NCBI GenBank assembly: GCA_951406725.2
Contig: OX597818.1
Coordinates: 74,834,001-74,898,000 of the forward strand
Source of the DNA: Octopus vulgaris
Lineage: Eukaryota
Reading direction: 5' to 3'
Length of the DNA stretch: 64,000 nt
Shown here: positions 8,281-58,619 of the stretch, piece after piece
Position numbering within the stretch: position 1 is the stretch's first letter
How the letters are laid out: each line of letters starts with the position of its first letter
Notes under the pieces: generated by a model
What the model saw: the letters and a program-made list of their open reading frames with translations, nothing else
Databases searched by the model: none
What the model was told of the DNA's origin: nothing
Position numbers and translations under genes: made by a program

Positions 8281-9535
8281 GAGGGGTGTTCAATAAGTAA
8301 TGCCCCTGATCCACTTGCAGTTATTTATATCTCTATAGATTAAGTGGCGAATTACAGCTCTGAACTAATTGTGGTTTCTTATTTACAGGTGTTTGAACTG
8401 AGTCAAGTGTGAAATGGATCCTGTTGAGTGTCGAGCAGTGATCTGGTTTTTGTATTTGAAAGGACGCACACCACGGGAGACTTTTGATGAAATGAAAGTA
8501 ACTTATGTTGATGCCCCATCATATGACCTTGTAAAATGCTGGCATTGTGAATTCAAACATAGTCGGAACTCTGTGGAAACAGCTCCTAGATCTGGTCGCC
8601 CCCTTCTGCCGTTGATGAGACGTCTGTCCGTCAAGTTGAGGCTGACATTTTGGAAGGTCAACGCATAATTATTCGCCAAATAGCCCATGAGGTCAAGATT
8701 AGTACCGGGTCTGTGGAAACTATCATTCATGACCATTTGCATATGCAAAAGGTGTCTGCCAGATGGATTTCCAGATTGCTCACACCTTTCCAGAAGCAAG
8801 AACGCGTTGAGTGCTCGAGGATGAATTTGGAGATGTGCCAAGAAGATGAGTCAAAATTTTTCAAAAGACTGATCACACAGGATGAAACCTGGGTCCATCA
8901 CTATGATCCATAGACCAAAGCCCAGTCAATGCAGTGGAAAGCACCGTGACTCACCTCCTCCAAAGAAGGCAAGGGTGCAGCCCTCCGCTGGCAAGGTCAT
9001 GCTCACAGTCTTCTGGGACCAGGACGAAGTAGTGATGACAGATTTCCTGGCAAAGGGTACCACAATTACAGGAGCCTATTATGCTTCACTTTTGAGGAAA
9101 TTAAGAGAAGCTATCAAAATCAAGAGGCGGGGCAAGATCATCAAAGGTATCCTCCTCCTGCAGGACAACGCTCCGGTCCACAACTCGCGTGTCGCCAGAT
9201 CAGAAGCACAGGTGTGCAGCTATGAACTCTTCCCCCATCCCCCTACTCTCCTGACCTTGCACCCTCTGATTTTCACCTCTTCCCAGCCATGAAGTTGATT
9301 TTGAAAGGAAAGCGTTTCCCAGATGATGCAGCCTTGATTTCTGAAGCCACGTCGTGGTTGGAGGACCAAGCTGGGGCCTTCTACAAAAACGGTCTCCAGA
9401 GCTGTATCAAACGATGGGAGAAATGCATAACTCTGGGTGGTTCCTATGTAGGAAAAGACTAATAACTGTGCCAAGTTTCGTTGTTCTACTGCTATGGGTA
9501 GTGGGTCAGAGGCATTACTTATTGAACGCCCCTCG
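8280..9535 (+). mobile_element. Mariner (DD34D) transposon, full length, frameshifted transposase
   Basis: TIRs CGAGGGGTGTTCAATAAGTAATGCC / GGCATTACTTATTGAACGCCCCTCG with TA flanks. Peptides MDPVECRAVIWFL, LITQDETWVHHYDP, LLQDNAPVH and HPPYSPDLAPSDFHLF occur across frames from 8414 to about 9462. Confidence 0.95.
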
Positions 9536-15399: not shown

Positions 15400-18117
15400 C
15401 AGTAGTTTTATTTTTATAGCGTGCTTTCACTTCACTACCGAGCGCAGCTCTGTGTGCCTTGGGTATGTGCTGTGATTTGTTGTGATGCTCTGATGGTTAT
15501 TGTATGGAAAGTGTTCTGCGTAAGATGTGTGCAGTGCCCAGTAGTGCAATTTTCTGTATGTTATATGTGTTTGTAAGTCCTGGTATTTTTGTTATGTATT
15601 TGTCTGAATATTTTTTTATCATGCCTAATGCACCTACTATGATAGGAATTGTTTCTGTTTTTAGATTCTACATTCTGGTTACCTCTATTTCCAGGTCCTT
15701 GTATTTTGAGAGTTTCTCCAATACTCTGCCGGTATTGATACATCAATTAGAAAGCAATTTTTTTCTTCATGATCTCTGAGAACTATATCTGGTCTGTTGG
15801 CCTTAATTTCTCTATCTGTGTGTATTGGCATATCCCAGAGTATGGTTGCTTTCTCGTTTTCTGTGACCTTTTCCGGTGTGTGCCTATACCATCTTTTTTC
15901 TGTTGCTATTCCATAATGTTAGCATAGTTTCCAGTGTATATAGGTCCCAACTCTGTCGTGTCTGTGAATCTATTCATTCTTAGCCAGGACTGGGCAGCCA
16001 GAAATAATATGATTTATTGTTTCTTGTACATCTCCACATATTCTGCAGTTACTTGTTATATTTCTTTTCATTACATGTTTTTGGTAATTTATGGTGGGGA
16101 GACTTTGGTCTTGTGCTGCAATTAAAAATCCCTCTGTCTCCTGAGCTTCTCAACCATTGCTGGGATTTTTTTTTGTCTATTTCTTTTGCGTTTAGTTCAG
16201 TCTAGTATTTACCATGAAGGGGCTTTTCTTGCCATCGTTTTATCATGGTTCTTTGCTGTTCTAGTTTTAGTTTGGATTTCATTTGTTTTATAGCTTTTGT
16301 TGCTTCTTCATCTTCTTCTTCTTCTTCATATTTGTTAGGTGGTATGATTTCTTGTTTGTATTTGTCAGCTTCCTTAAATACTGAGAACAGTTTTTTGTTT
16401 TGCTCGTGTTTTGCCGCTATTTGTATCAGTTTTCCTTCCTTCTGAAGTAGGTATTTTTGCAGTCCTATGGTGGGTATTTTATAGTAGTTTTCTAGCTGTA
16501 TAAGGCCTCTACCACCTTCTATACGTTGTATATATAGTCTTTCTATGTCAGATTTTGGGTGATGCATCCTAGATCCTGTCATTATTTTTCTTGTTTTCCT
16601 ATCTATTTTGGTTAGTTCATTTAGTGTCCAGTTAAGGATATTGTAGCTGTAACTTATAACTGGGACAGCTAAAGTGTTAATACATATTATCTTGTTTTTA
16701 GCATTGAGCTCTGTTTTAGTATTGATCTAACTCGTCTATAATATTCTTTTTTTATTTTCTCTTTCATTTGTGTGTGTTGTGTCTTATCTAGTTCATGGAT
16801 TCCTAAGTATTTGTAAGTTTGGCTTTGGTCTAATTCTTTTATTTCATTGGTTTTATTTAGTGTGATGTTGCTACTCTTAACTAGTTTTCCTCTTTTCATG
16901 GTTACTTTGGCGCATTTTTCTAATCCAAATTTCATATCTATTTCTTTGGTAAATCCATGAACTGTCTTTAATAGTGTTTCCAGCTGTTTGTCATTTGCAG
17001 CGTCTAGTTTTAGGTCATCCATATATAAAAGGTGGCTGATCGTTTTGCCGTAACATTTATATCCGCATCCAGTTCTATTTAGCATATCAGATAGAGGTGA
17101 CAGTGCCAAGCAGAAAAGGAGTGGAGAGAGCGTGGCTCCCTGGAATATTCCTCTTCCAATGGGAATGACTTTGGTTTTCATGAGTCCCTCTTTTGTTTGG
17201 AGCTGTAGCACTGTTTGCCATTTATTCATAGAGTGCCCTATGAATTTTATAATTATTGGTGCTACTTTTTTAATGGCTAGTGTTTCGAGGATCCATGTGT
17301 GGGGGATGCTATCAAACGCCTTTTTGCAGTCGATCAAGGCCATACTGAGGCCTTTCTTCTTTCTGTGGCTGTCTTCAGTTATGGCTGTATTAATCATTAG
17401 TTGATCTTTACAGCCATATGAGCCTTTGCGGTATCCTTTCTGCTCTTCTGGGAACAGGTTGTTTTCGTCCAGATGCTTGTTCAACCTTTGCGATATCACT
17501 GCAGTAAATGCCTTGTACATTGTAGGGAGACAGGTTATTGGTATGTAGTTTTCTGGTTTTGCTGTCTCATTTGATTTGGAAATTAAGATGGTTTTCCCCT
17601 TCGTGAGCCATTCAGGCATTGTCTCTGGCTCTGCTAGTATGTTGTTAAAGTTTTCAGCTAGCTTTTTGTGCATTCCTGTTAGATATTTCAACCAGAAGTT
17701 GGGGATCTTGTCATGCCCAGGTGCCTTCCAGTTGCTTAGTCTTTGCAGTGCCTGGGTAACCTCTTCAGTTGTTATGGGGATCCAAAGTTGCTCAGATGCT
17801 AAGTTTGTTGTTTTAATACTCCTTTTTTTGGTTGTTCATTCACCGACCATATTTCTTTCAAGAATTCTTCCACTTCTGCCGTTGGTGCTGCAGTGATGTC
17901 TATTTTACTTTTGCCAAGTTCTTCGTAGAGCATTTTGGGGCTGGAGTTGAACTGTTTGTTTTGTTCAAAGAAACGTTTGCATTTCTCATACCGGCAGATC
18001 CTTTGTGCTTTGGCAAGGATATCTTGCTTTAGCTTTTCTTTTATCTCAGGTAAATCCTTTTCCGTGATGTTGTATTTGCACAGTATTTTTGTTTTCTTTT
18101 CGTTGCTTAGTTAAACC
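15400..18117 (-). mobile_element. Dong/R4-clade LINE, relatively young 5'-truncated copy flanked by (TAA)n
   Basis: 334-aa ORF 16687-17691 (ENYIPITCLPTMYK, GIFQGATLSPLLFCLAL, SHLLYMDDLKL); ORF 16202-16582 (MHHPKSDIERLYIQRIEGGRGL); RLE end TIPIIVGALG...LGTAHILR; ATT repeats at both junctions. Confidence 0.93.
16687..17691 (-). pseudogene. Reverse transcriptase domain of the Dong/R4 element
   Basis: RT motifs including QG.LSPLLF and YMDD; stops and frameshifts outside this segment. Confidence 0.9.
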
Positions 18118-24789: not shown

Positions 24790-26430
24790 CTGTCTTCAGT
24801 GATAGCTTTAGAAAAGAGGTCCGGATTTTAATAATAAGACCTTGAACAACAATCGCGGTTTTTGCATCAGTAGCAACCATAAATCAGGAAACTATAACTG
24901 TAAATACCGAAGACCTACAAATACAAATGTCATGCACATAGAGATGGCAGCAACGTCAATCTAACGCCCACCCCACCGCCGATACAATGCTACAAACCAT
25001 GAGGAAAACATTAATCTTTAAAACTCTCCCTTTTAAAACTAAGAAACACGAACACACACCAAAAGAAAGCATTGAAAAATGCCTTAAACCCATGTAGGGC
25101 ACAACCACGTATGTGGCTTTAGGAACAAATACAGCACTGTGGTATTCGCGTCTGAAGAAGAAGCAAAAGAACACTCCACAGTGCCTTTAAAATCAACTGA
25201 TTTTTGCGCTTAATTTGTTTGCTTTATTTTTATTTTTGTTCCGGGCATTAGTGTTCTTTTACATGTATGTTGAGGTAGTTCGTCATTGGGGCATATTTCT
25301 TTCTTGTGTGATGTTTGTGTGTTTTGTGTGTTCACGTTTAGAAAAGGAGCTATCCTGGTAGGGTTACCCTCATGTATAGGGGCTCTTCTTTGAAGTATTT
25401 GAGTGTAAAATATTGCTTATATCTGCAGGGAGGGAAGGAATAGACAATCACTTTACTCATTTATACAAATACCACAAGATCTTCATTAGAAACACTGTTA
25501 AAGTTAGCTATAATTGTCTTTTCAATACAGGGTTAATAATATTCAATCACAATAACCAATCACATACCAGAAACCCCCGAGAAAGAAAATGCAAGTAGAG
25601 ATTTCCTAACCGGAGCCCTCTAAACAACAACTGTCTCATGAAAGAACTCGTATACAAGGTCATGTCCAACAGAATGACAAAGCCGTGTATCGGAATGACG
25701 GGCAACTCATTCAAGAATAGGTATACACAGCATCCTGCATCATTCAGAGACAAATACATTCATCTTGCTTCATTCAGAGAGAAATACAAAACACTCTGCA
25801 ATATTCCTATCAAATATAATATGGACATTGAAAGAAGATGAAATAATCAGCCCTAAGATAGAATGGAAAATTATTGCTGAAGTCAAAAATACGGAAGAAG
25901 GGATACCAAATGTGAATTTTGTATTACTGAAAAATTAGACGTTATACAATCAACAGATTTTAAACGTTAGAGATGAAAACCTCTCCCTGCATACACTAAT
26001 AATATTTTACACTCAAATATTTCAAACAAGAATCCCTATGCAGGAGGGTAACCCTACCAGGACAGATACTTTCCTAGACGTGAACACACATAGCACAAAT
26101 ACCTCACACAAAAAAAAATATGCCCCAATGGCAAACTACCTCAAGGACAAGAACACCATGCCCAGAACAACATAATCATGCAAAATAGGGCAAACAAATT
26201 AATCGCAAAAAATTGACCAATCAACAAAGCCAAGGGAGACAAACATTCAAAAGATATAACTCAAGTGTGACGTTCCTTGTTTCATTGATTCATTGTTTTA
26301 TTTATGCGATTTACGAGAAATCCCGTGAACGGAACGAGATTGTTTCCCAAAATGGAGGCGAACACCATTCTCCATATGATCGGCTTGAAAGATTGTTAAG
26401 ACAATAGGATATTTACCTACTTTTCTTAAC
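24790..26430 (+). mobile_element. Penelope-like element 3' part with an internal inverted copy of its 3' region
   Basis: HKIFIRNTVKVSYNC, CIGMTGNSFKNRY and IEWKII..CEFC motifs; 25195-25432 is the reverse complement of about 25985-26215. Confidence 0.8.
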
Positions 26431-31790: not shown

Positions 31791-31822
<32 letters not shown>

Positions 31823-31827
31823 CATTA

Positions 31828-31992
31828 CTTTATTTTAAGCAGCAGAAAATTCAACAAAATCTGTTACTCTGAGTTTCTCGTTGCCGTTCATCAGACAGTT
31901 TTTGCTAGATTCTAGCAAAAACTGTCTGATGAACGGCAACGAGAAACTCAGAGTAACAGATTTTGTTGAATTTTCTGCTGCTTAAAATAAAG
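31828..31992. repeat. Perfect inverted repeat, 82-bp arms, 1-nt spacer
   Basis: 31828-31909 is the exact reverse complement of 31911-31992; the unit continues to 32063 and is flanked by TA tracts. Confidence 0.95.
31922..31959 (+). ncRNA. Minimal type I hammerhead ribozyme (mirrored on the minus strand)
   Basis: CTGT-CTGATGA-a-CG-GCAA-CG-a-GAAAC-TCAGA-GTA-ACAG; stem I CTGT/ACAG, predicted GUA cleavage triplet. Confidence 0.8.
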
Positions 31993-32081
31993 CATATTAC
32001 TCTACCACTGGTATTTGAGTACTCTTTTTTCCACCTTGTTTCACATTTATGTGTTTACTCCGGTATATATATATACATACA

Positions 32082-32311
32082 GGCGGCGAGCTGGCAGAAA
32101 CGTTAGCGCGCTGGGCGAAATGCTTAGCGGTATTTCGTCCGTCCTTACGTTCTGAGTTCAAATTCCGTCGAGGTCGACTTTGCCTTTCATCCTTTCGGGG
32201 TCAATAAATTAAGTACCAGTTACGCACTGGGGTTGATGTAATCAGCTTATTCCCTTTGTCTGTCCTTGTTTGTCCTCTCTATGTTTAGCCCCTTGTGGGC
32301 AGTAAAGAAAT
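32082..32311 (+). mobile_element. SINE family B, full length
   Basis: GGCGGCGAGCTGGCAGAA head, GAGTTCAAATTCC B-box, GGTCGACTTTGCCTTTCATCCTTTCGGGGTCAATAAATTAAGTACCAG core. Confidence 0.88.
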
Positions 32312-32329
32312 ACATATATATATATAATT

Positions 32330-34900
32330 TTGCTATTATGTTAAACCGTCGCATGTCCAAGTTTGGGCAAATGCGTTTTTTCAATATTTATTTTTGCTTG
32401 TAATAGCCGGTTCATTTGGTCAATGTATCACCAGCTGCTTCAGATGCCTAGTTATTAAAAATCGTCAAAGCGTAGTACAACGCTTTTTCTGGAAAGGTGA
32501 CGTTTTGGACTTGCTACACTTTTGCATAATAGCAACGATATATATTTCTTCATTTATGTAATAAGGCTACCATTGGTTTCATCCTATGAACAATATCCTA
32601 ATATCTTAATAATTTTCAAGCCGGTCACAGGAAATGGTGTTCCTCTCCATTGTGAATAGAAACACAGTCTCGTTGAATTCACGGAGATTCTTGTAAAAAA
32701 GAAACAGTAAATCAAGGAGCACTACTTTTTAGAGTGGTTATCTCCTTTGGATTGATTTTGAGCAAGCAGTCATGTTGGATGGTAAATTTGTTTGCATTAT
32801 CTTATATTCTGGTTGTATGTGATATTCGTATGCTTGCGTGCTGACGTAGTTTCTCATGTGGAGTTCGTGTGTTATGTATTTTCAAATTTCGTGTTCAAGA
32901 AAGGAGCTATCCTGATAGGATTAACGGCGCAGGTGTTTGAAATATTGCTTCTGTATATAGGGAAAGAAGATTTTATCCCTAATATATAGAGGATGTTATC
33001 TATTGACTGTACGTTATTTGATGTTTCAGTTGTTCAGAGTTCATATGCGGTAGCCCATCCTCCGTATTTTCTGGTTTTATCAATGATGTTCTATTTTCTC
33101 TGGGAGTTCTTTATTCCACCTACTTTCAATGTGCATATCATATTGGATAGAAATAATTGAGTGTTTATTTGTTGTTGTTTTTTTACTTTTGTCTATAAAT
33201 AACAAGTTGTGTGTACTTTTCCTTGAACGAGTTGCCCGTCGCTCCGATATATGTCTTTTATATTCCGTTGGAATCTGTGATATTTTCTTTGGATACAGTT
33301 TCTTTTCCGAAACAGTTCTTGTTTAGAGGGCAGCGATTTGGGGATGTGTAGTTGCATTGATTTCGGGAGTGTTTCTGGTGTCTTTATTTTTATTGTGGTT
33401 GAGTATTATTGAGCCTTTATTCGGGAAGGAAACTTTAGTTAACTTTAACAGTGTTTATGTTGAAGATCTTGTGGCTTAAATGTGAATGTGGGAAGTAGTT
33501 GTCTATTAATTTTAAGACATTCTAAGCTATGTTAGTAGCTACATTCTTGCTTAAGGTGGATTAAACCATAAGATTTTCCTCTGTCTGTGACTTATTGATC
33601 TGTTTGTATTTCGTTCAATGTAATTTATGTTATTCTTAAAGTTAAACCTTTCTAATGCAGTATTATGGTATGGGGCAGCTTTTTCAAAAGTGTCTTTATC
33701 GGCAGTTAAACTGGAGACGCGCCAGCTAATATTGTTGAGTAGTTGTTTAATGATTGCTGGTTTGGATCCTATGTCTGTGTGCGAGGCTTCCTTATTCGTG
33801 TTATGGTAAGGTTTAATTTTGCCTATGCTTACCATATGTTGATATCTACGATGTTGACCTCCTTAAGGTTGGTACTAACTGCAATACTTGGACCTAACTG
33901 GCTAAATATTTTGCATATTTTTTTCTTCATTCTATCCATATCGTCTCTATTTTTACTATGTACTACTCGTATGACACCGTCCCTATATAAACCTATGTTA
34001 GGTTTTTTATACTTTTCCTACGATATCTAAGGTATAGAGGCCTACAAGGTCAGCTATCCCTGCACCATCATAGCTCCCCATTGCCACATCAAATAATTCT
34101 TCCCCTTTCTTGTTTACCCAATAGTAATTATTATGAAAATGTAATGACTTCCTTGCTTTCATAATTATATCTATGTCAGCGTTTGTTATAGTAACAGATG
34201 CCTTGCTAAATTCAAGTGCCTTCTGAAACAAGCTTTTGGAGATTGATGGGTAAAAGTCTACGGTATCAAATTGGATAAATTTGTATTTGGGTTGATCTTC
34301 TATTTTCGTAAACTATTCAATAGTTGCACAACTGCATATCCATTTAGTAAGGTTTGAATATGCTCTGATAGGGCATTTTCGTTAAATTTTACATTTCTAA
34401 CTAATTTTATAAGGTCGTCTTCAAATTTTTCTAGGTCTTTAATATGTGTGGGATTTTTATTTGAAACTGTAATTGACCTCTGAATGAGGGCTTTACGTAC
34501 ATTTATCGAATAAGTAGACCTTCCATGTCATTCCCCTCAGAATATATGTTTTTTTGTTTTTGTCAATAAGATACTGATGTACACTTGCGTTCCTGGAATA
34601 GGAATACTGGGCAGACTGTCAAATAAATCATCCAACAGTAATGTTTGATGGTAAATTCAACTGTTTGCTCAACATTTAAGTCCCAGGGCGATAACTACTC
34701 ACAAGATGTCAGGGTTCAAGAGTAGTACTCCTTGATTTATAGTTGTCTTTACGAGAATCTCCACAAACTGAACTTGACTTTGTGTTTTTATCCAAAACGA
34801 ATACGAGCATCATTCCTCCATGAGATCGGCTTGAAAAATTGTTAAGATGTTAAAACAATTTTCATAGCATGAAATTAATGGCAGCCTTAATATACGAATA
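32330..34900 (-). mobile_element. Penelope-like retroelement (RT plus C-terminal GIY-YIG), decayed, with an inverted terminal copy
   Basis: FIQFDTVDFYPSI, FDVAMGSYDGAGIADLVG, GLYRDG, KILWFNPP, HKIFNINTVKV and CNY...CPL; 34750-34885(+) is an inverted homolog of 32570-32700. Confidence 0.88.
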
Positions 34901-35004: not shown

Positions 35005-35635
35005 AACGATCTCGTGGAAACTTGACAGGTGTAGGTCCTGCGGAAACCCATGCAGTCATTTACGCACTTGAAATTTCGAAAATATCGATAATTTTTAATC
35101 AGCATCGATATTTAAAAAGTCAATAGAACATTTCAATGCAAATTTTCATATGAAAGTTATTTTCTGCCATAACTTTTAAAGTTTCAACCGATCTTCTTGA
35201 AATTTTATACACAGATGGAATATGCACTAAGGATAGGTTGAGACAAATGAATTTTTACCAAGGGAACTTAAGCAAATAAGATGATTTTTTATTAACTCAT
35301 TAATGAAATTTGGCTTAAATTGTTGTACGATTAAATTGTTCGTCAATTATTTCAGCACTCTCCGATGCTGTAACGTATTTTCTTAACACCTTCACTTAAA
35401 AGTATCGATAATAAACGTTGCCACGTTGTGTGCTAAACATGTAACATGTATTTTCTTAACATCTGCACTTGAAATTGTCGGTACTAACCGTTACAATCGA
35501 CATTTGATTCTCATGATCAGTGGAACTATATCCATGAAACAGTCGTCAACTGTATTTTTATATAATTTTTATGATGAAAAATGCGAGCGATGTATAAGTA
35601 CGCAGGCAAAGCAGAGTTATAACAGAGTAATTTCC
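35005..35635 (+). mobile_element. Possible non-autonomous Helitron-like element
   Basis: TTTCAACCGATCTTCTTGAAATTTT motif common in such elements and a decayed 3' hairpin-like end near 35600-35630. Confidence 0.3.
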
Positions 35636-35678
35636 CTTCATTTTTAACGGTATTTTTTCATAACGTTTTCAAATAGCC

Positions 35679-35741
35679 AGATAACCGATGAGATGATGTT
35701 GTGGATTTCCACTTCGGCATCTGAAACTCAGAGTTTTATCT
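35679..35741 (+). ncRNA. Type I hammerhead motif (CCGATGA variant) in a solo unit ending at 35840
   Basis: AGATAA-CCGATGA-GATG..TGGA..TCCA..CATCt-GAAAC-TCAGA-GTT-TTATCT with 6-bp stem I; 35690-35840 is almost identical to 58429-58579. Confidence 0.75.
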
Positions 35742-35837
35742 TGACTACCGAGTAATGTAACATATTGTATAGATAAATTTCCTCTATTTACATAATATTG
35801 AGGTCTCTTTCTTTCTTTTGTTATCTTACCGTTTTAT

Positions 35838-35913
<76 letters not shown>

Positions 35914-38867: not shown

Positions 38868-38869
<2 letters not shown>

Positions 38870-39827
38870 GCAAATTATCATTATCAATGGCAAATATCCA
38901 AAGAGAGCGAATAATGCAGATGTTCACAAAGCCGTGACCCATCAATGGCTAATGGCCTCTGGCTTAAAATCTGAAACAGAAGGGTTTATCATAGCAGTTC
39001 AAGATCAATGCCTACCTACAAGAAACTACCAGGCCAACATATTGAAGAACGGCAGCAACCCAACATGTCGTGTATGCCAACAACGAAATGAAACCATTGA
39101 TCATGTTGTCTCTAAGTGCAGTCTCTTTGCGCTTACAGAGTATCTCAACAGGCATGATAGAGCTGCACAATATATTCACTGGGTAATTTGCAACAGCTTG
39201 GACTTGCCCCATGAAAAAAACTGGTGGGAACAGAAACCACCTCCAGTGCTTGAAAATGACCACATCTCACTCCTCTGGAACTTCACCATTCAAACTGACG
39301 GAAAGATAGATTCCAATAGGCTAGACATCATAGTAAAAGACTTCAGACAAAAAACATGCCTTCTCATTGATATGACTGTCCCAATCGATATAAATGTATC
39401 TGTCAAGACCTACCAGAAACTGAGCAAATATAAAGATCTTGATATAGAAATCAGCAAAATGTGGAACCTGAAGTCTAAAACAATACCTGTTATCATAGGT
39501 GCCCTGGGAAATATAGCAAAAGGGGCTGATTGCTATCTAACTCAGATACCAGGAAACCCAAAAATGGTAGAAATTCAAAAGATAGTGCTCATGTGAACTG
39601 CTCATATCCTACGCAAAATACTTTCTATGTAATCTCAAGTTTTATAACAAACATAATTCTCGTTTGTTTTTTTAGGCATTCACTAGTACAACACTAAGTA
39701 CAAAACCAAATATATGGCACCCTAGGCATAACGCCAACACGAATTTCCAACTTGTTGTCTCTTGAGGTCTCTGGGTGAGACTTGGAGCCAGCTTGTGCAA
39801 ATGTAATGTAAAAGTCAAACAGAGAAC

Positions 39828-43789: not shown

Positions 43790-45990
43790 AATTGTTCAGC
43801 AGGACAGCAAATATTAGGGCAAGCCAAACATCTCAAGACGTATACAATATTATTATAGGAAGAAATTCAAAATCTTTCAGTTATTTCTGAGATATTCCCG
43901 AGTATGGGATATTCCGTATTCAGAGACAAATAGGGAAAAAATAGGGAAAATGAGAATGGTATACATCAATAAAATGACGAAAAGAATAAGGAAATGGAAA
44001 GAAAGAAGAAAAAAAAAGCATAAAAGTTCATAGTTCAACTTGCCGAAGTTATAGTAACCAGTGCAAGTGTCCTTACGTGCAATCCTCCGTAGATCCATGA
44101 GCGTAAGTTGTTAGGTGCGATCCTGCATGTGTCCATGTGGGTTATAATCCTGATATAGTATACATCCGAAGAAAACAGGCGCAAACATATAACCGTTCAA
44201 TAACAGAATGGTAGCGGAGGCAGCTATTAAATGGTAAAAGTAAAGAAAAGAAAAGAAATAGAAAGATAGTGTGAAGCGGGGTGATTTTAAGGATTGACGA
44301 TAGGATATAGTAAGTTGCATAAGTGTATGGTGTCTAAGAATTGTGTACGGGTTAGCCGAGAGGATAAGAGAGATGATGAGTGTGTAGAGGGAGACAGGGT
44401 AAAAGAAGTAGAGCAAAATGAGCCACGTTGTATTCATTAAAGAGTTGTAGGTTAGACTTTTGAGAGCTTCTTTTAAGCAAAATACACAACTAGAGTGTTA
44501 GGCCTGATATGAATTACCCAAGTCTATTATATTTCAAGGGTGTTTATACTGTATTTTTCTAATAATTAAATACGTGGCTGGCTAAGGATGTGGAATTGCT
44601 GTTATCCTTATATCTAAGCTCTCTATTAGACTCATCTACCCCCATCAAATCGTATCTAGAGCGAATTGGAAGAAATATACTAGACAGAATCATACCCTCT
44701 ATTAGAGAAAGACTAAATGCAAACTTATGGTCCTGACCAGACGAGATCATCGCCTGATTCTACTTGCTTCACAACAAAAGCACATCCCGTTTTCTACAAT
44801 CTGACATCAATAATTACTATGCCTCTATATTACCTATCCTCCTTAAAAAGGTCCTGACCCTAGCTAAAAACCTAACCAACATAACCTTCTTAGAAATTGA
44901 TGTCATTCTATCTGCCAGGCAGACCCTCATATCCTTCGATAATAAGCTTTGGTCCCGCGCTAATCTCAACACTAACAGAAGCAACTTCTTCGGTATAACT
45001 ATGGGCTCATCCGACTCCGGCCATGCCTCGTACCTCCTTCAACCGCTCCGCACACAATTCCTCCATATTAAAGGGGGTTTATACAGGGACGATGCATTAT
45101 TAATTACAACCGGCCTAACAAAGCCTGCATTAGAAAAAAACTAGAAAACACAAATTCTTCGCCAACTTTGACCTATCTATCTCTTTCGAAAATACTTACA
45201 GGACAGCACATTTTCTATGTTACTTTAGATTTAAACTCTTCACTAAACGTCCTATATCATCAACCTAATCAATGCCTTAAATACAACAACACAGAATCTA
45301 GTCACTATAAATCTACATTTGAGAGCGTAATCAAAGGCATATCCATCAGATATGTCTGCCAATGGAGAAATCTTCAGCAACTACGCCAACTGCTATAACC
45401 AAGCTCTAGCCGTTAGTGGTGTCTCCCAGAATATTAGATTTATACCCAACTCTAGACTTAAGGAACACCTCTCGAAACTTAGCTCTGGACAAACGCGCAC
45501 AAATAATGGAAATCTAATCCCTCCTACTACGATCAGTCAATCTCGCTCACCTAACATCCGCACGCACAACACTAGATCTACAAACACTAATACTAACATT
45601 ATACATTCCATCTGTCCTCTGACATTCACTAGGGATTCTTTCTTTCCACCACCATATTCTTTTACTCCCTTCCTCTGTGTCGTCATCTTATTAATATATA
45701 TCATTCTCATTTTCCCTATTATTTCCTTATTTGTCTCTGATGACGGTATATTCCATACTCGGGGATATCACAGGAACAGCTGTAAGATTTTGAATTTCTT
45801 CCTATAATAATATTGTATACGACTGGGGATGTTTACCTTGCCTTAATGTTTGGTGCCCTGTTGAACAATTATATATCCGCTGAATCGGAAATCTGCAATG
45901 GCTCCATAACTACCATCTCAGCTATAACCGTGAAGCTCCAGTAATCCGTTACAGCATTTACATATCGCACCTAATCGTTTAGTCACCTAT
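43790..45990 (+). mobile_element. Penelope-like element with inverted terminal repeats carrying HHR motifs
   Basis: RT pieces QSDINNYYASI, GITMGSSDSG and GGLYRDDAL; about 43790-43985 is an inverted homolog of about 45675-45870. Confidence 0.85.
45734..45787 (+). ncRNA. Type I hammerhead motif in the PLE terminal repeat
   Basis: TCT-CTGATGA-cggtatattcc..ggggatatcaca-GgAAC-AGCT-GTA-AGA; the inverted copy keeps GAAA. Confidence 0.65.
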
Positions 45991-51287: not shown

Positions 51288-52490
51288 TTTATTATTAAAG
51301 CTGCTAAAACATCACAAAAAAGATTACAAAAACTTCTACTCAAAGTGAAATTTAAATCAAAAAGCTAAGCAACTGGCGAAAATCATCAACTCTTTCGTTC
51401 AGCCTGTTAAAGTTCTGTTAGTAGCATCGGTTTATCTGCAATGATAATAGTAATGATAAATAAATGCAATGAAAGCAATTAAGTAAATAATAATCATAAA
51501 AAATATAATCAAAAGAATAAAAATAAAATGAAACAAAACAAATCATTCGGGTATTCGATATCTTAAAACACATTTTAGGCGATTCTAGAGTCACTAAATC
51601 TTTACAACACATTTTAGGCGATTCTAAGTGGCCTATTAAAGACGTGCATTACAGATCAAAGTTGTAAGATACATTGTGCTCTAAATCGCAGTGCAAAAAA
51701 AAAACAATCCTATGGTTCAAAAAGGTGCATTTAAAAGTAACAAATACAATAAAGCAATGAAAATAAAATAAAATAAGGTAAAAATAATAATAAAATAATA
51801 TAAAAAGAAAATAAAATAGAAATAATAGTTTGTAAACATTCGAAGGTTTTCTTGAAAGTCGAAAAATGTAAAATGTAAAGGCTAAAAATGTACAATGAAA
51901 TCTGTTTTGGGATGAAAAGCCAAATTCAAATGCGTAAGCCAATATTATCTGTATGGTATTTTTCACTCGACATTTTATACCAATAGCGTGTCTGCATCAA
52001 TTTAAAAGCTCCCATCTTTGTTTCAGTGCGTATTTATCCTGGAACAATATGAAGACCCTTTCCGTCAGGCACAAATTGCACCTCATTGGACGTCTATATG
52101 CTCCATGTTTATATAGTGCTGCTTTCTACAAAATTGTTCAGCTGATTTTGAAAGGACGAGTATCATTTTCATTCAATTGCCACACACGTTTAGCGAGACC
52201 CGTTGCTGACCTATTTTCCGAGTATCGAAATGAATTTCGGTGGGAATATAATCTAATCTTAAAAAGAATTTTCCGAAGCACCTGTACAAGTCTTGCATTC
52301 TTGTGAACCATCTATTTGTACCTTAACTCTATAAGCTATTCCTTTCTCAAGACAATTTCCTCTTAACGGACAGCAATATTTTATCTTTACAATTACAATT
52401 CTTCTAGTTATTTCCGGCACTATGGTTGCTTCTAATAGTTTTCATGTTGCGCTGGATAATTAAAGAACCGAAGCTCTTGCAACAAAAATA
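51280..52490 (-). mobile_element. PLE GIY-YIG C-terminus and 3' terminal region
   Basis: TGASENSF and RCNLCLTERVFILFQDKYALKQRWELLN*CRH, the typical PLE C-terminal signature. Confidence 0.75.
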
Positions 52491-55897: not shown

Positions 55898-58005
55898 ACT
55901 TGATAACCTCGACCGAGCAGAATGTTGGGCGTCGTATCGACACCGCTGGCCACAGCACGTCTTCCATTTCTCTCTGGATTGTGCCTTTCTCATTCACGTA
56001 ACTCCAAATGCTTGTCGCATTTCGTCAACTCACCATTTTAGAGGCCTTCCGAATGTTCCCTTTCGCTCGCGCAGATACCACTCGACAACTGCATGAGTTC
56101 GCCGATTGTCGCTGAACCGAGCGATATGTCCAGCCCATTTGAACCTTTGCTTTCTGTAATCGGTGATTATGTCTCTCATGCCAATTTTCTCTTTCATCGC
56201 TTCGCTCCGGGTGTGCTCTTTCAGCGACACGCCAGGCATCGATCTTTCCTTAGCACTTTGAGCAGTTACCAGCCTCTGGTCCTCAGTCTTCGTCGTGACT
56301 CAGGTTTCGCTTCTGTACAAAATTACAAGTAAAACCGTGCCGTTGAAGAGCTTTCCTTTAAGAAGATATTTGATGGAGTTGCACTTTCCATCCTGCCCTT
56401 ATTCTCTTCGAAAACTCCTTCTCCATGTCTCGTAGCATCTTCGCCTCTGGTCAAAGGTAGACCAATTCTTCCCCCTCCTCTACTTCATCACTCCTACCAC
56501 TATTCAGCTGAATATTCGGACCGCATGAACTTGGTTTTCATGCGGTTCATTTTGAGGCTTACTTCCGTACTTCTGATGTCCAGCTCCGTCAGTATGGTCA
56601 GCACCTGATTTGTGGTCTCTGTAATGAGAACGATGTCGTCAGCAATATGGAAGTGGTTAGATTGCTCGCCGTTGATGTTTACGCCACCTCGCCAGTCAAT
56701 GCCTGTGATGACCTGCTCGTGACTTTTAGTGAAGAGTTTCGGAAAGATAATGTCTCCTTGTTTGATGCTTTTATGGGTTACCACAGCAAAGATATGTCGG
56801 TGGTACATCCACAATTCACCTCTTGAAGAAGTTGATTGTATTGCACCTCGACTCCTTGTTCTCCAACAACTTCAACAGAGCGTTGATCTCAACTCTGTCG
56901 AAGGTCTTTTCATAATCCACGAACGCAACGCAAAGAGGTGGTCTGTATTCTTTTGTTCGCTCCAGCAACTGGATCAGAGTGAATTTATGATCCACGATAC
57001 TGTAATTCTATATGATCCATCATGTTGCAATTATTCCGCAAGCTTGTTTGTTCCCTTGTCTGATGTTCATCTAGATGTTATGATAATCGATTTAGTATTA
57101 TCTTCGAGAACAACTTGTGTACATGAGACGAGAGGTATATGGACGATAGCCCATCGCTAACTCCTTTCTTGGACAGCAGGACGGCTTTCGGCTCTTTCCA
57201 TCACATTGTTATTTTTCCTTTGTCCAGATGGTAACTAAATCGTTCGGCGAGGACCTTCTAGACCTACACTCCCCCTGACTCTTGGAGAAGACTAAGAAAC
57301 TGCTGGAGAAGTGGAAGAACATGGAATGGACCGCAGAAAGCAACCTCGAGTATTCCATTCTCAGCAGGGTGTTACGTCAACATTTGAAGAAAACCTTTGA
57401 AAAAATATATCATATTATCTGAGTAATAATAACATTATAATGTGGTGTCCAAAGCTCCTCTTCAGGCATCGGCAACCAGATGATGTTATACAGTAGGACG
57501 TCCGCGTGTGGAAATCCGTAATTATCTGTTGAATATGTACAAAATACTTTTAATATGCGATGGACTAAACAGGGTATATTATAAATCACTATAATTGTTT
57601 CAGCGCAACATTATCAGCTGGTAATTGTCGAATGTTACGTGTATTATACACATTATTGTATTATATGATTCAACAAAAGCTGTATACGTACGCATCTTCG
57701 AATGAGTCGGTTCGAAATCACTGCTAGATCATCTTTGTTTTATATCTACACCATGATATTAAATTTAGCATTCCATTGGCAAAGAAGAGGTGAGAAATGC
57801 AAAGAAGAAAGAAACCAATGATAAAAATATCAAAAGTAAATTAATGGAAAGAAAACATATTTAAAAAATGAAATGAAAAAAAAAACAAAGTCTCCCCTTA
57901 AGCAAAGTAGCACGTGCTGAAGATATTGATTCTATTATTATCTAGTGTGACAATTTAAAAATGATTGTAGATATTATCAGTGTATTTTGGCGATTTAAAT
58001 AATAG
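54800..58005 (+). pseudogene. TLR-like relic (LRR, LRRCT, TIR) split by an RTE insertion
   Basis: LLKIPQ, LQIKALLL and INSNRIQ before the RTE; after it YLSNNNIIMWCPKLLF, CGNP, HYNCFSA, E*VGSKSLLDHL, LYLHHDIKFSIPLAKK and VFWRFK. Confidence 0.45.
55893..57300 (-). mobile_element. RTE-clade LINE fragment (RT to 3' end)
   Basis: IKQGDIIFPKLFT, HFHIADDIVLI and FKWAGHIARFSDNR; same family as 46017-46615. Confidence 0.88.
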
Positions 58006-58340: not shown

Positions 58341-58348
<8 letters not shown>

Positions 58349-58510
58349 ATGTTACATTACTCGGTAGTCAAGATAAAACTCTGAGTTTCAGATGCCGAAG
58401 TGGAAATCCACAACACCATCTCTTCGAAGAGATGGTGTTGTGGATTTCCACTTCGGCATCTGAAACTCAGAGTTTTATCTTGACTACCGAGTAATGTAAC
58501 ATATTGTATA
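58341..58510. repeat. Perfect palindrome, 85-bp arms, no spacer, centred on TTCGAA
   Basis: Axis between 58425 and 58426; the right arm continues to 58579 and matches 35690-35840; TA tracts on both sides. Confidence 0.95.
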
Positions 58511-58576
58511 GATAAATTTCCTCTATTTACATACTATTGAGGTCTCTTTCTTTCTTTTGTTATCTTACCGTTTTAT

Positions 58577-58619
<43 letters not shown>

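What the first reader, a model, noticed from the sequence alone, without database searches (positions are those of the whole stretch)
31828..32063. Perfect 82-bp-arm hairpin encoding the same hammerhead on both strands
Exact inverted repeat with a 1-nt spacer. Each strand reads CTGT-CTGATGA-aCG-GCAA-CGa-GAAAC-TCAGA-GTA-ACAG. Stem II is only 2 bp with a GNRA loop. Stem III is the near-palindrome ACTCAGAGT, consistent with dimer-dependent cleavage known for minimal HHRs. A read-through RNA would pair the ribozyme with its own antisense copy, a possible built-in off state (inference). Zero mismatches imply very recent origin, gene conversion or an artefact.
Basis: partly seen in the sequence, partly recalled or inferred. 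Interest (0 to 1): 0.72.

Follow-up and report, generated by a model that had tools for sequence, protein, structure and literature searches.

The report
Mirrored stub of a Penelope retrotransposon
The hairpin and its two predicted self-cutting RNA motifs are real, but they are one of hundreds of short, mirror-image end pieces of a protein-coding jumping gene in this genome, likely made when its enzyme started copying from both sides of the cut target DNA, so this is likely an ordinary by-product and not a built-in off switch.

Summary
Observation confirmed: 82-bp perfect arms with a 1-nt spacer, and a minimal type I hammerhead motif on each strand. It is not a stand-alone device. The 28-nt core occurs 3,658 times in this genome, and 683 loci are short hairpins like this one, 134 with the identical seam. 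The parent is a 3,352-bp retrotransposon with a 727-aa telomerase-like RT ORF carrying the Hydra-clade motifs RWK, DKT and CxCx5C. The window copy is (TA)n, inverted short end, tail-bearing end, (TA)n: the published Penelope-like layout. Stem I covaries in relatives (180 of 192 cells paired, 62 when shuffled). Cleavage is untested. Arm geometry favours two separate reverse-transcription starts over fold-back: the short arm reaches further upstream in 34 of 71 insertions, the tail arm in 16. Arm ends pile up 9-14 nt upstream of the ribozyme, likely the RNA's 5' end, and not at the cut site. The scan found this kind before on other DNA. New member of a known kind; low interest.

The parts
31828..31909 (-). 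Inverted short-end arm: element positions -11 to +70 (0 = first base of ribozyme stem I), ending at AAATAAAG without the tail
   Evidence: 100% match to a full-length copy; same end in most copies
31909..32064 (+). Direct arm: element positions -13 to +142, pseudo-LTR end plus tail
   Evidence: 99.4% to a full-length copy
31905..31915 (.). Head-to-head seam; the '1-nt spacer' is a -11/-13 join with a 1-nt overlap
   Evidence: 134 loci share this exact seam; both polarities relative to the tail occur
31922..31959 (+). Minimal type I hammerhead motif; predicted cut after 31955 (GUA); stem I extendable to about 31911-31968
   Evidence: covariation in relatives; cleavage untested
31861..31898 (-). 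Mirror copy of the hammerhead motif; predicted cut after 31865
31993..32064 (+). 72-nt tail, present on one arm only; its two borders (+70, +142) are the inferred reverse-transcription starts
   Evidence: the tail-to-start link is from PMC11167929
31796..31827 (.). Left (TA)n target flank; 31811-31825 repeats at 32064-32078 (candidate 15-nt target duplication, unproven)
32064..32078 (.). Right (TA)n target flank

Best explanation
This is a minimal insertion of a young, high-copy Penelope-like retrotransposon with Hydra-clade motifs: two head-to-head copies of the ribozyme-bearing end of a 3.35-kb RT-coding element in a TA repeat, likely made when the element's enzyme nicked both target strands and started copying its RNA at two fixed sites. 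Shown: family, parent, layout, fixed ends at +70 and +142, TA target. Inferred steps: (1) both strands of (TA)n are nicked; (2) one 3' end primes at +142 and the other at +70, which leaves the tail on one arm only; (3) on the upstream pseudo-LTR both cDNAs run off at about -13, likely the RNA's 5' end at an initiator-like CCATTCT; (4) the two cDNA ends are joined by short overlap, giving the palindrome. The ribozyme is a passenger here: the template was uncut, and this copy would fold into an inactive hairpin if transcribed. Confidence about 0.95 for the identity, 0.65 for twin priming, 0.5 for the RNA 5' end.
For: 3,658 exact cores, reversed control 0. Unit 3,352 bp with a 727-aa ORF. AF2 model pLDDT 92, best PDB match TERT at E 1.4e-9. 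Hydra motifs near-invariant in 119 aligned sequences. Of 100 tail-anchored loci, 71 carry an inverted short-end arm, and 67 of those 71 have (TA)3 at that end. The short arm reaches more than 5 nt further upstream in 34, the tail arm in 16, level in 21 (p 0.015). In 5 the arms do not overlap at all, and the bias is present in the 28 youngest (13:5). A fold-back of the tail-arm cDNA cannot copy sequence that arm lacks. The window's exact seam has the tail on the -13 arm in 18 and on the -11 arm in 11 of 30 other loci, 1 has both; 3 of these were called by eye. 48 of 169 arm ends fall in -14..-9 (8 per nt) against 0.27 per nt upstream; 2 of 169 lie within 3 nt of the cut site. Only 53 hairpins have both arms passing -15, although self-complementary words lie there. 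In vitro precedent: anole PLE protein nicks and extends both strands and starts at two sites that bracket the tail, and ribozyme mutants still insert (PMC11167929).
Against: Arms of one insertion share subfamily variants, which fits one template or fold-back as well as two primings from one source locus. Palindromes can lose asymmetric centre pieces after insertion (recalled), which could mimic the arm asymmetry. The RNA 5' end is untested: only contigs were available. An untemplated cap G before -13 was not enriched: 4 of 100 listed matches. The second Hydra family in the window shows no sharp wall; its seams follow self-complementary words. Searches used patterns of different length, so their ratio is rough. 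29 of the 100 loci lacked a detected inverted short arm next to a tail arm. No tree against named Hydra consensus sequences. The GIY-YIG domain is seen by motif only; Pfam gave no hit on the 4 parent ORFs.
Confidence: 0.85

Rival explanations
1. Same element, but the palindrome forms by self-priming: one cDNA (or an antisense template, as proposed for Adineta Penelope) folds back and copies itself, and asymmetric centres arise by later deletion.
For: Arms share subfamily variants, e.g. L039 has 4 differences in 2,218 shared positions against 38 shared departures from the majority. Seams often sit on self-complementary words (CTAG, AATT, GGCC, AACGTT). PMC3846280 argues for self-priming.
Against: The short arm is longer upstream in 34 against 16, 5 pairs do not overlap, and the same pattern holds in young copies; both seam polarities occur. 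The fixed +70 end is unexplained without a second start.
Confidence: 0.3
2. The hairpin is itself a non-autonomous unit (MITE- or retrozyme-like) amplified from one master copy.
For: 134 loci share the exact seam; 683 short hairpins.
Against: Same-seam loci belong to different subfamilies (A or T at +62 in 16 and 14 of 30) and carry the tail on either arm. Arm lengths run continuously up to full length. No shared target duplication: 2 of 65 against 1.3 shuffled.
Confidence: 0.05
3. A selected regulatory device: read-through RNA switches the ribozyme off by antisense pairing, or supplies dsRNA for silencing or editing.
For: The read-through RNA folds into an 81-bp perfect helix at -146.8 kcal/mol with ribozyme stem I probability 0.
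Against: The layout is the family default. The second hairpin in this window (58341-58584) has its seam inside the core, so it has no intact ribozyme. No host gene was recognised among the 9 window ORFs scanned. The adjacent SINE-like repeat points away from the hairpin.
Confidence: 0.04
4. Assembly or library artefact.
For: No contig spans this locus.
Against: Ends and asymmetric tail match hundreds of loci. Other inversion joints of the family occur in contigs of runs X1, X8 and X18. Older copies with diverged arms have the same layout.
Confidence: 0.02

Closest known systems
Hydra clade of C-terminal-endonuclease Penelope-like elements (Craig et al. 2021, PMC8557442; section 11, passages and the metadata supplement seen), incl. 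Hydra-1_Obim (2,507 bp, complete, (TA)n)
   Same: Single ORF; RWK, DKT, CxCx5C, CxxC and CxH motifs; hammerhead in the pseudo-LTR; (TA)n target; inverted 5'-truncated copy; tail at one end.
   Different: Unit 3,352 bp (paper: generally under 3 kb). Tail 72 nt (paper: 30-40 bp for PLEs). Identity to Hydra-1_Obim not tested because its sequence was not in the supplement held; by length it is nearer the window's second family (2,579 bp).
Poseidon of Anolis carolinensis, PAc (Frangieh et al. 2024, PMC11167929; parts 1-2 of 4 read)
   Same: Tail ends as fixed insertion ends; AT-rich target; uncut RNA as template.
   Different: Other clade. In PAc the ORF begins inside the ribozyme and the starts lie within the ORF; here both ends lie upstream of the likely start codon at +209. 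In the parts read, the paper does not derive the head-to-head repeat from the two starts.
Minimal hammerheads of metazoan PLEs (Cervera and de la Pena 2014, PMC4209133; parts 1-2 of 4 read)
   Same: Type I; short helix I; extra nucleotide before stem II; palindromic helix III; dual motifs on opposite strands at short distance already noted there.
   Different: Stem II has only 2 bp with a GNRA loop (paper: 7-8 bp in Schistosoma), and it lacks the G10.1-C11.1 pair in the young subfamily.
Adineta vaga Penelope insertions (PMC3846280; passages seen)
   Same: Head-to-head inverted pseudo-LTRs with palindromes at the seam, optional tail, microhomology joins.
   Different: That paper explains them by self-priming on an antisense template; the arm geometry here favours two sense-template primings.
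Animal non-LTR retrozymes (bioRxiv 10.64898/2026.07.22.740005; part 1 of 5 read)
   Same: Protein-free, type I hammerhead, PLE-derived.
   Different: Retrozymes are head-to-tail tandems; this is one head-to-head insertion of a coding family.

Membership tests
Penelope-like element (endonuclease-bearing) | Telomerase-like RT in a single ORF | tested here: met
   727-aa ORF in parent copies; YRDD near-invariant; best fold match TERT
Penelope-like element (endonuclease-bearing) | C-terminal GIY-YIG endonuclease | tested here: inconclusive
   VVY...YTG motif with invariant Y599, Y614, G616, H629, E689; no Pfam hit on the parent; the listed fold matches were polymerases only, and the domain was not searched alone
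Penelope-like element (endonuclease-bearing) | Pseudo-LTRs from partial tandems; inverted 5'-truncated copy; tail at one end | tested here: met
Hydra clade | RWK motif and DKT in place of DKG | tested here: met
   RWK at 53, DKT at 129; D118/K119/T113 of 119
Hydra clade | CxCx5C linker; CxxC and CxH around the conserved E and N | tested here: met
   C578, C580, C586, C686, C711 and H713 invariant in 119 of 119; CRLC at 683
Hydra clade | Insertion into (TA)n | tested here: met
   67 of 71 at the unselected short end
Hydra clade | Generally under 3 kb (a tendency, not a definition) | tested here: not met
   unit 3,352 bp owing to a 3' UTR of about 1 kb
Hydra clade | CCHH motif absent; placement in the clade by phylogeny | not tested
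   named Hydra sequences were not in the supplement held
Minimal type I hammerhead | Core CUGANGA / GAAA / UH closed by stem I | tested here: met
   48 of 77 related loci carry it on the sense strand, 2 on antisense; 180 of 192 stem I cells paired, shuffled mean 62, max 87
Minimal type I hammerhead | Self-complementary helix III allowing a dimer | tested here: met
   dimer -7.4 kcal/mol; 39 of 48 relatives self-complementary, outer C-G pair required by the search
Minimal type I hammerhead | Self-cleavage | not testable with these tools
   the monomer's best fold hides the core (active fold +0.5 against -12.2 kcal/mol); 2 of 169 arm ends near the cut site
Non-LTR retrozyme | Head-to-tail tandem units, each with a hammerhead | tested here: not met
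   single head-to-head insertion
MITE | One master with fixed terminal inverted repeats and target duplication | tested here: not met
   mixed subfamilies and tail polarity; continuous lengths; duplication not above shuffle

The most novel reading that the evidence does not exclude
These hairpins are the 'strong-stop' product of Penelope-like retrotransposition: the enzyme primes twice, once from each nicked target strand at the two borders of the tail, both cDNAs run off the transcript's 5' end just upstream of the hammerhead, and their ends are joined. This would replace antisense self-priming as the explanation of PLE inverted repeats, and would let the transcription start be read from genome sequence alone.
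Probability: 0.4. Interest if true: 0.5.

Novelty: new member of a known kind. Interest (0 to 1): 0.2.

Why it matters
As a locus it is ordinary: one of at least 683 short hairpins of one family. As a data set it bears on an open question, how Penelope-like elements make their inverted repeats and one-sided tails. The fixed +70 and +142 ends, the arm asymmetry and the wall at -13 give exact predictions for an in vitro assay and for 5'-end mapping. Hundreds of perfect hairpins are also a potential source of dsRNA wherever they are read through (inference).

Tried and rejected
DNA search of the arm in the own genome returned nothing, although the arm must match itself: common words are skipped, so patterns were used instead. 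Rfam: no gathering-level match in the window; weak matches are generic hairpin models. Pfam on 4 parent ORFs: none; PDB sequence search with the alignment: nothing significant. Expression: no RNA holder listed. Three runs guessed to be RNA have contigs over the ORF, but the kind is a guess and contigs show no start, strand or level; no splice-like joint was listed. Locus-spanning reads: none; contigs are about 60-nt fragments. Cap-G idea for the 1-nt spacer (cDNA ends GAATC annealing over an A.A mismatch): the spacer seam (134) outnumbers the AATT seam (about 52), but G before -13 is not enriched outside that seam (4 of 100 listed), so it is unsupported. The GGCC seam of family 2 looked like a cap G, but TGGCC occurs as an internal variant. 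Ribozyme cut site as a seam hotspot: rejected, 2 of 169. Target-site duplication: 2 of 65 informative, shuffled mean 1.3, max 4. 3' splice site or branch point at TTCTAG as the cause of the wall: considered and dropped, since arms retain the would-be intron bases; not tested. Tail hairpin: z -0.5, not above shuffles. The Hydra-like ORF remnant at 33213-34608 is 31-46% identical to the parent protein, so it is not the parent. The family-2 locus table was swamped by TA matches and not used. Literature: 4 searches; none of the listed papers proposed twin priming for PLE inverted repeats, but subscription journals are not covered. Craig et al.'s sequence supplements were not held and bear on whether this family is already named.

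Full report
1. Observation. The arms at 31828-31909 and 31911-31992 are exactly complementary with one base between them. The hammerhead string lies at 31922-31959 on + and 31898-31861 on -; the predicted cut follows 31955. Stem I can extend to about 12 pairs with one A.A mismatch. The monomer's best fold pairs the core with the helix III loop (-12.2 against +0.5 kcal/mol for the bare active fold), and the helix III segment can dimerise at -7.4. A read-through RNA folds into the long hairpin (-146.8) with no ribozyme stem I. Octopus is my inference from recall and from earlier scan notes, not from a call.

2. Family and parent. A 28-nt core has 3,658 exact copies and the reversed control 0. 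Many copies come as minus/plus pairs from tens of bases to several kb apart. Of 20 stretches fetched, L034 and L037 hold direct repeats about 3.35 kb apart around a 727-codon ORF. Pfam finds nothing in it. It has 1,760 homologues; the best 120 are 43-58% identical. An AF2 model on a 119-sequence alignment has pLDDT 92, and its best PDB match is TERT. RWK, DKT, YRDD, CxCx5C, CxxC and CxH are present and near-invariant. These are the features given for the Hydra clade in PMC8557442 section 11, which also lists hammerheads and (TA)n targeting. The window element matches a full copy at 99.4-100%.

3. Layout. Copies end at two fixed places: +70 (AAATAAAG, then TA repeat; 1,855 matches of one variant) and +142 (CCGGT, then TA repeat; 5,411 matches). 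The window copy reads (TA)n, inverted -11..+70, direct -13..+142, (TA)n; the extra 72 nt is the one-sided tail described for PLEs (PMC8557442). There are 683 hairpins with a centre this short, and 134 share this exact seam. I fetched the first 100 of the 5,411 tail ends, all on contig C1. A tail arm was aligned in 97, a short arm in 72, and both in 71; 67 of the 71 have (TA)3 at the short end, which was not selected for. Perfect arms are common: 21 of 70 compared insertions (79 found, 9 dropped for under 20 shared positions).

4. Is the ribozyme real? In 77 metagenome loci encoding relatives, a type I descriptor hits 48 on the sense strand and 2 on antisense. Without filtering on stem I, 180 of 192 cells are Watson-Crick against a shuffled mean of 62 (max 87 in 2,000), with 23 different stems; 39 of 48 helix III segments are self-complementary. 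Within the family, recurrent variants fall at core N7, the free GNRA position, the pair closing stem II, the stem I mismatch, loop III and U4 (to C), besides a CpG site in stem II and +62. The motif is therefore conserved as a structure at clade level. Cleavage is untested; published minimal PLE hammerheads cut poorly and only as dimers (PMC4209133) or need the protein (PMC11167929).

5. Mechanism. Simple fold-back of the tail-arm cDNA predicts that the short arm is a subset of the tail arm. Instead the short arm reaches further upstream in 34 of 71, the tail arm in 16, level in 21; in 5 the arms do not overlap; the 28 youngest show 13:5. The window's own seam has the tail on either arm (18 and 11 of 30, 1 on both) and occurs in different subfamilies, so it arose repeatedly from two equivalent ends. 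This fits two primings, at +142 and +70, from the two nicked strands, matching the two start sites and two-strand nicking shown in vitro for the anole element. Against: the arms share subfamily variants, and later centre deletions could mimic asymmetry. PMC3846280 favours antisense self-priming. Arm ends pile up at -14..-9 (48 of 169; 8 per nt against 0.27 upstream and 1.7 downstream) and avoid the cut site (2 of 169). Only 53 hairpins pass -15 on both arms. I read this wall as the RNA 5' end at an initiator-like CCATTCT (consensus recalled), at about even odds. A cap-G signature was not found, and family 2 shows no wall.

6. Artefact and function. Contigs of runs X1, X8 and X18 show other inversion joints of this family; X10 shows none among those listed, and no contig spans this locus. 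No RNA run on record held the element. The 9 window ORFs scanned gave only RT, RT zinc-finger and transposase families, or nothing. The off-switch reading has no support beyond the fold itself.

7. Verdict. A new member of a known kind. The layout, minimal hammerhead and TA targeting are published, and earlier scan notes report the same kind on other DNA, including the idea of copying from both strands. Interest 0.2; the novel reading has probability 0.4 and would merit 0.5.

Noticed in passing
window 58341-58584: Second perfect hairpin (85-bp arms) with its own one-sided tail in (TA)n, from a second Hydra-type family: 2,579-bp unit, 717-aa ORF 44.6% identical to the first, 3,640 core copies, hammerhead with a CCGAAGA core. 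The seam lies inside the core, so neither arm has a whole ribozyme.
   Followed up: yes
window 35551-35845: Another copy of family 2 (98%) with an intact hammerhead motif at 35681.
   Followed up: partly
window 33213-34608 (-), 51973-52375 (-), 44641-45117 (+), 25440-25946 (+): Decayed ORF pieces of further Hydra-like families, 29-68% identical to the parent protein.
   Followed up: no
window about 32081-32250: High-copy repeat with A- and B-box-like words directly right of the element, resembling a tRNA-derived SINE (recalled); very deep cover at its start; oriented away from the hairpin.
   Followed up: no
family 1 older subfamilies and family 2: Core position U4 reads C (32 of 107 arms; all family 2 examples), a recurrent departure from the hammerhead consensus whose effect on cleavage is unknown.
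   Followed up: partly
L251 and L273: Metagenome contigs with hammerhead motifs on both strands relative to the ORF, perhaps nested or inverted neighbouring elements.
   Followed up: no
window 16202-17835 (-), 8873-9292 (+), 38868-39596 (+), 56500-56871 (-): LINE-type RT remnants and a DDE transposase fragment.
   Followed up: no
table: Many homologues are single ORFs on 2.2-3 kb metagenome contigs without names, so Hydra-type elements look far more widespread than the few families described.
   Followed up: partly
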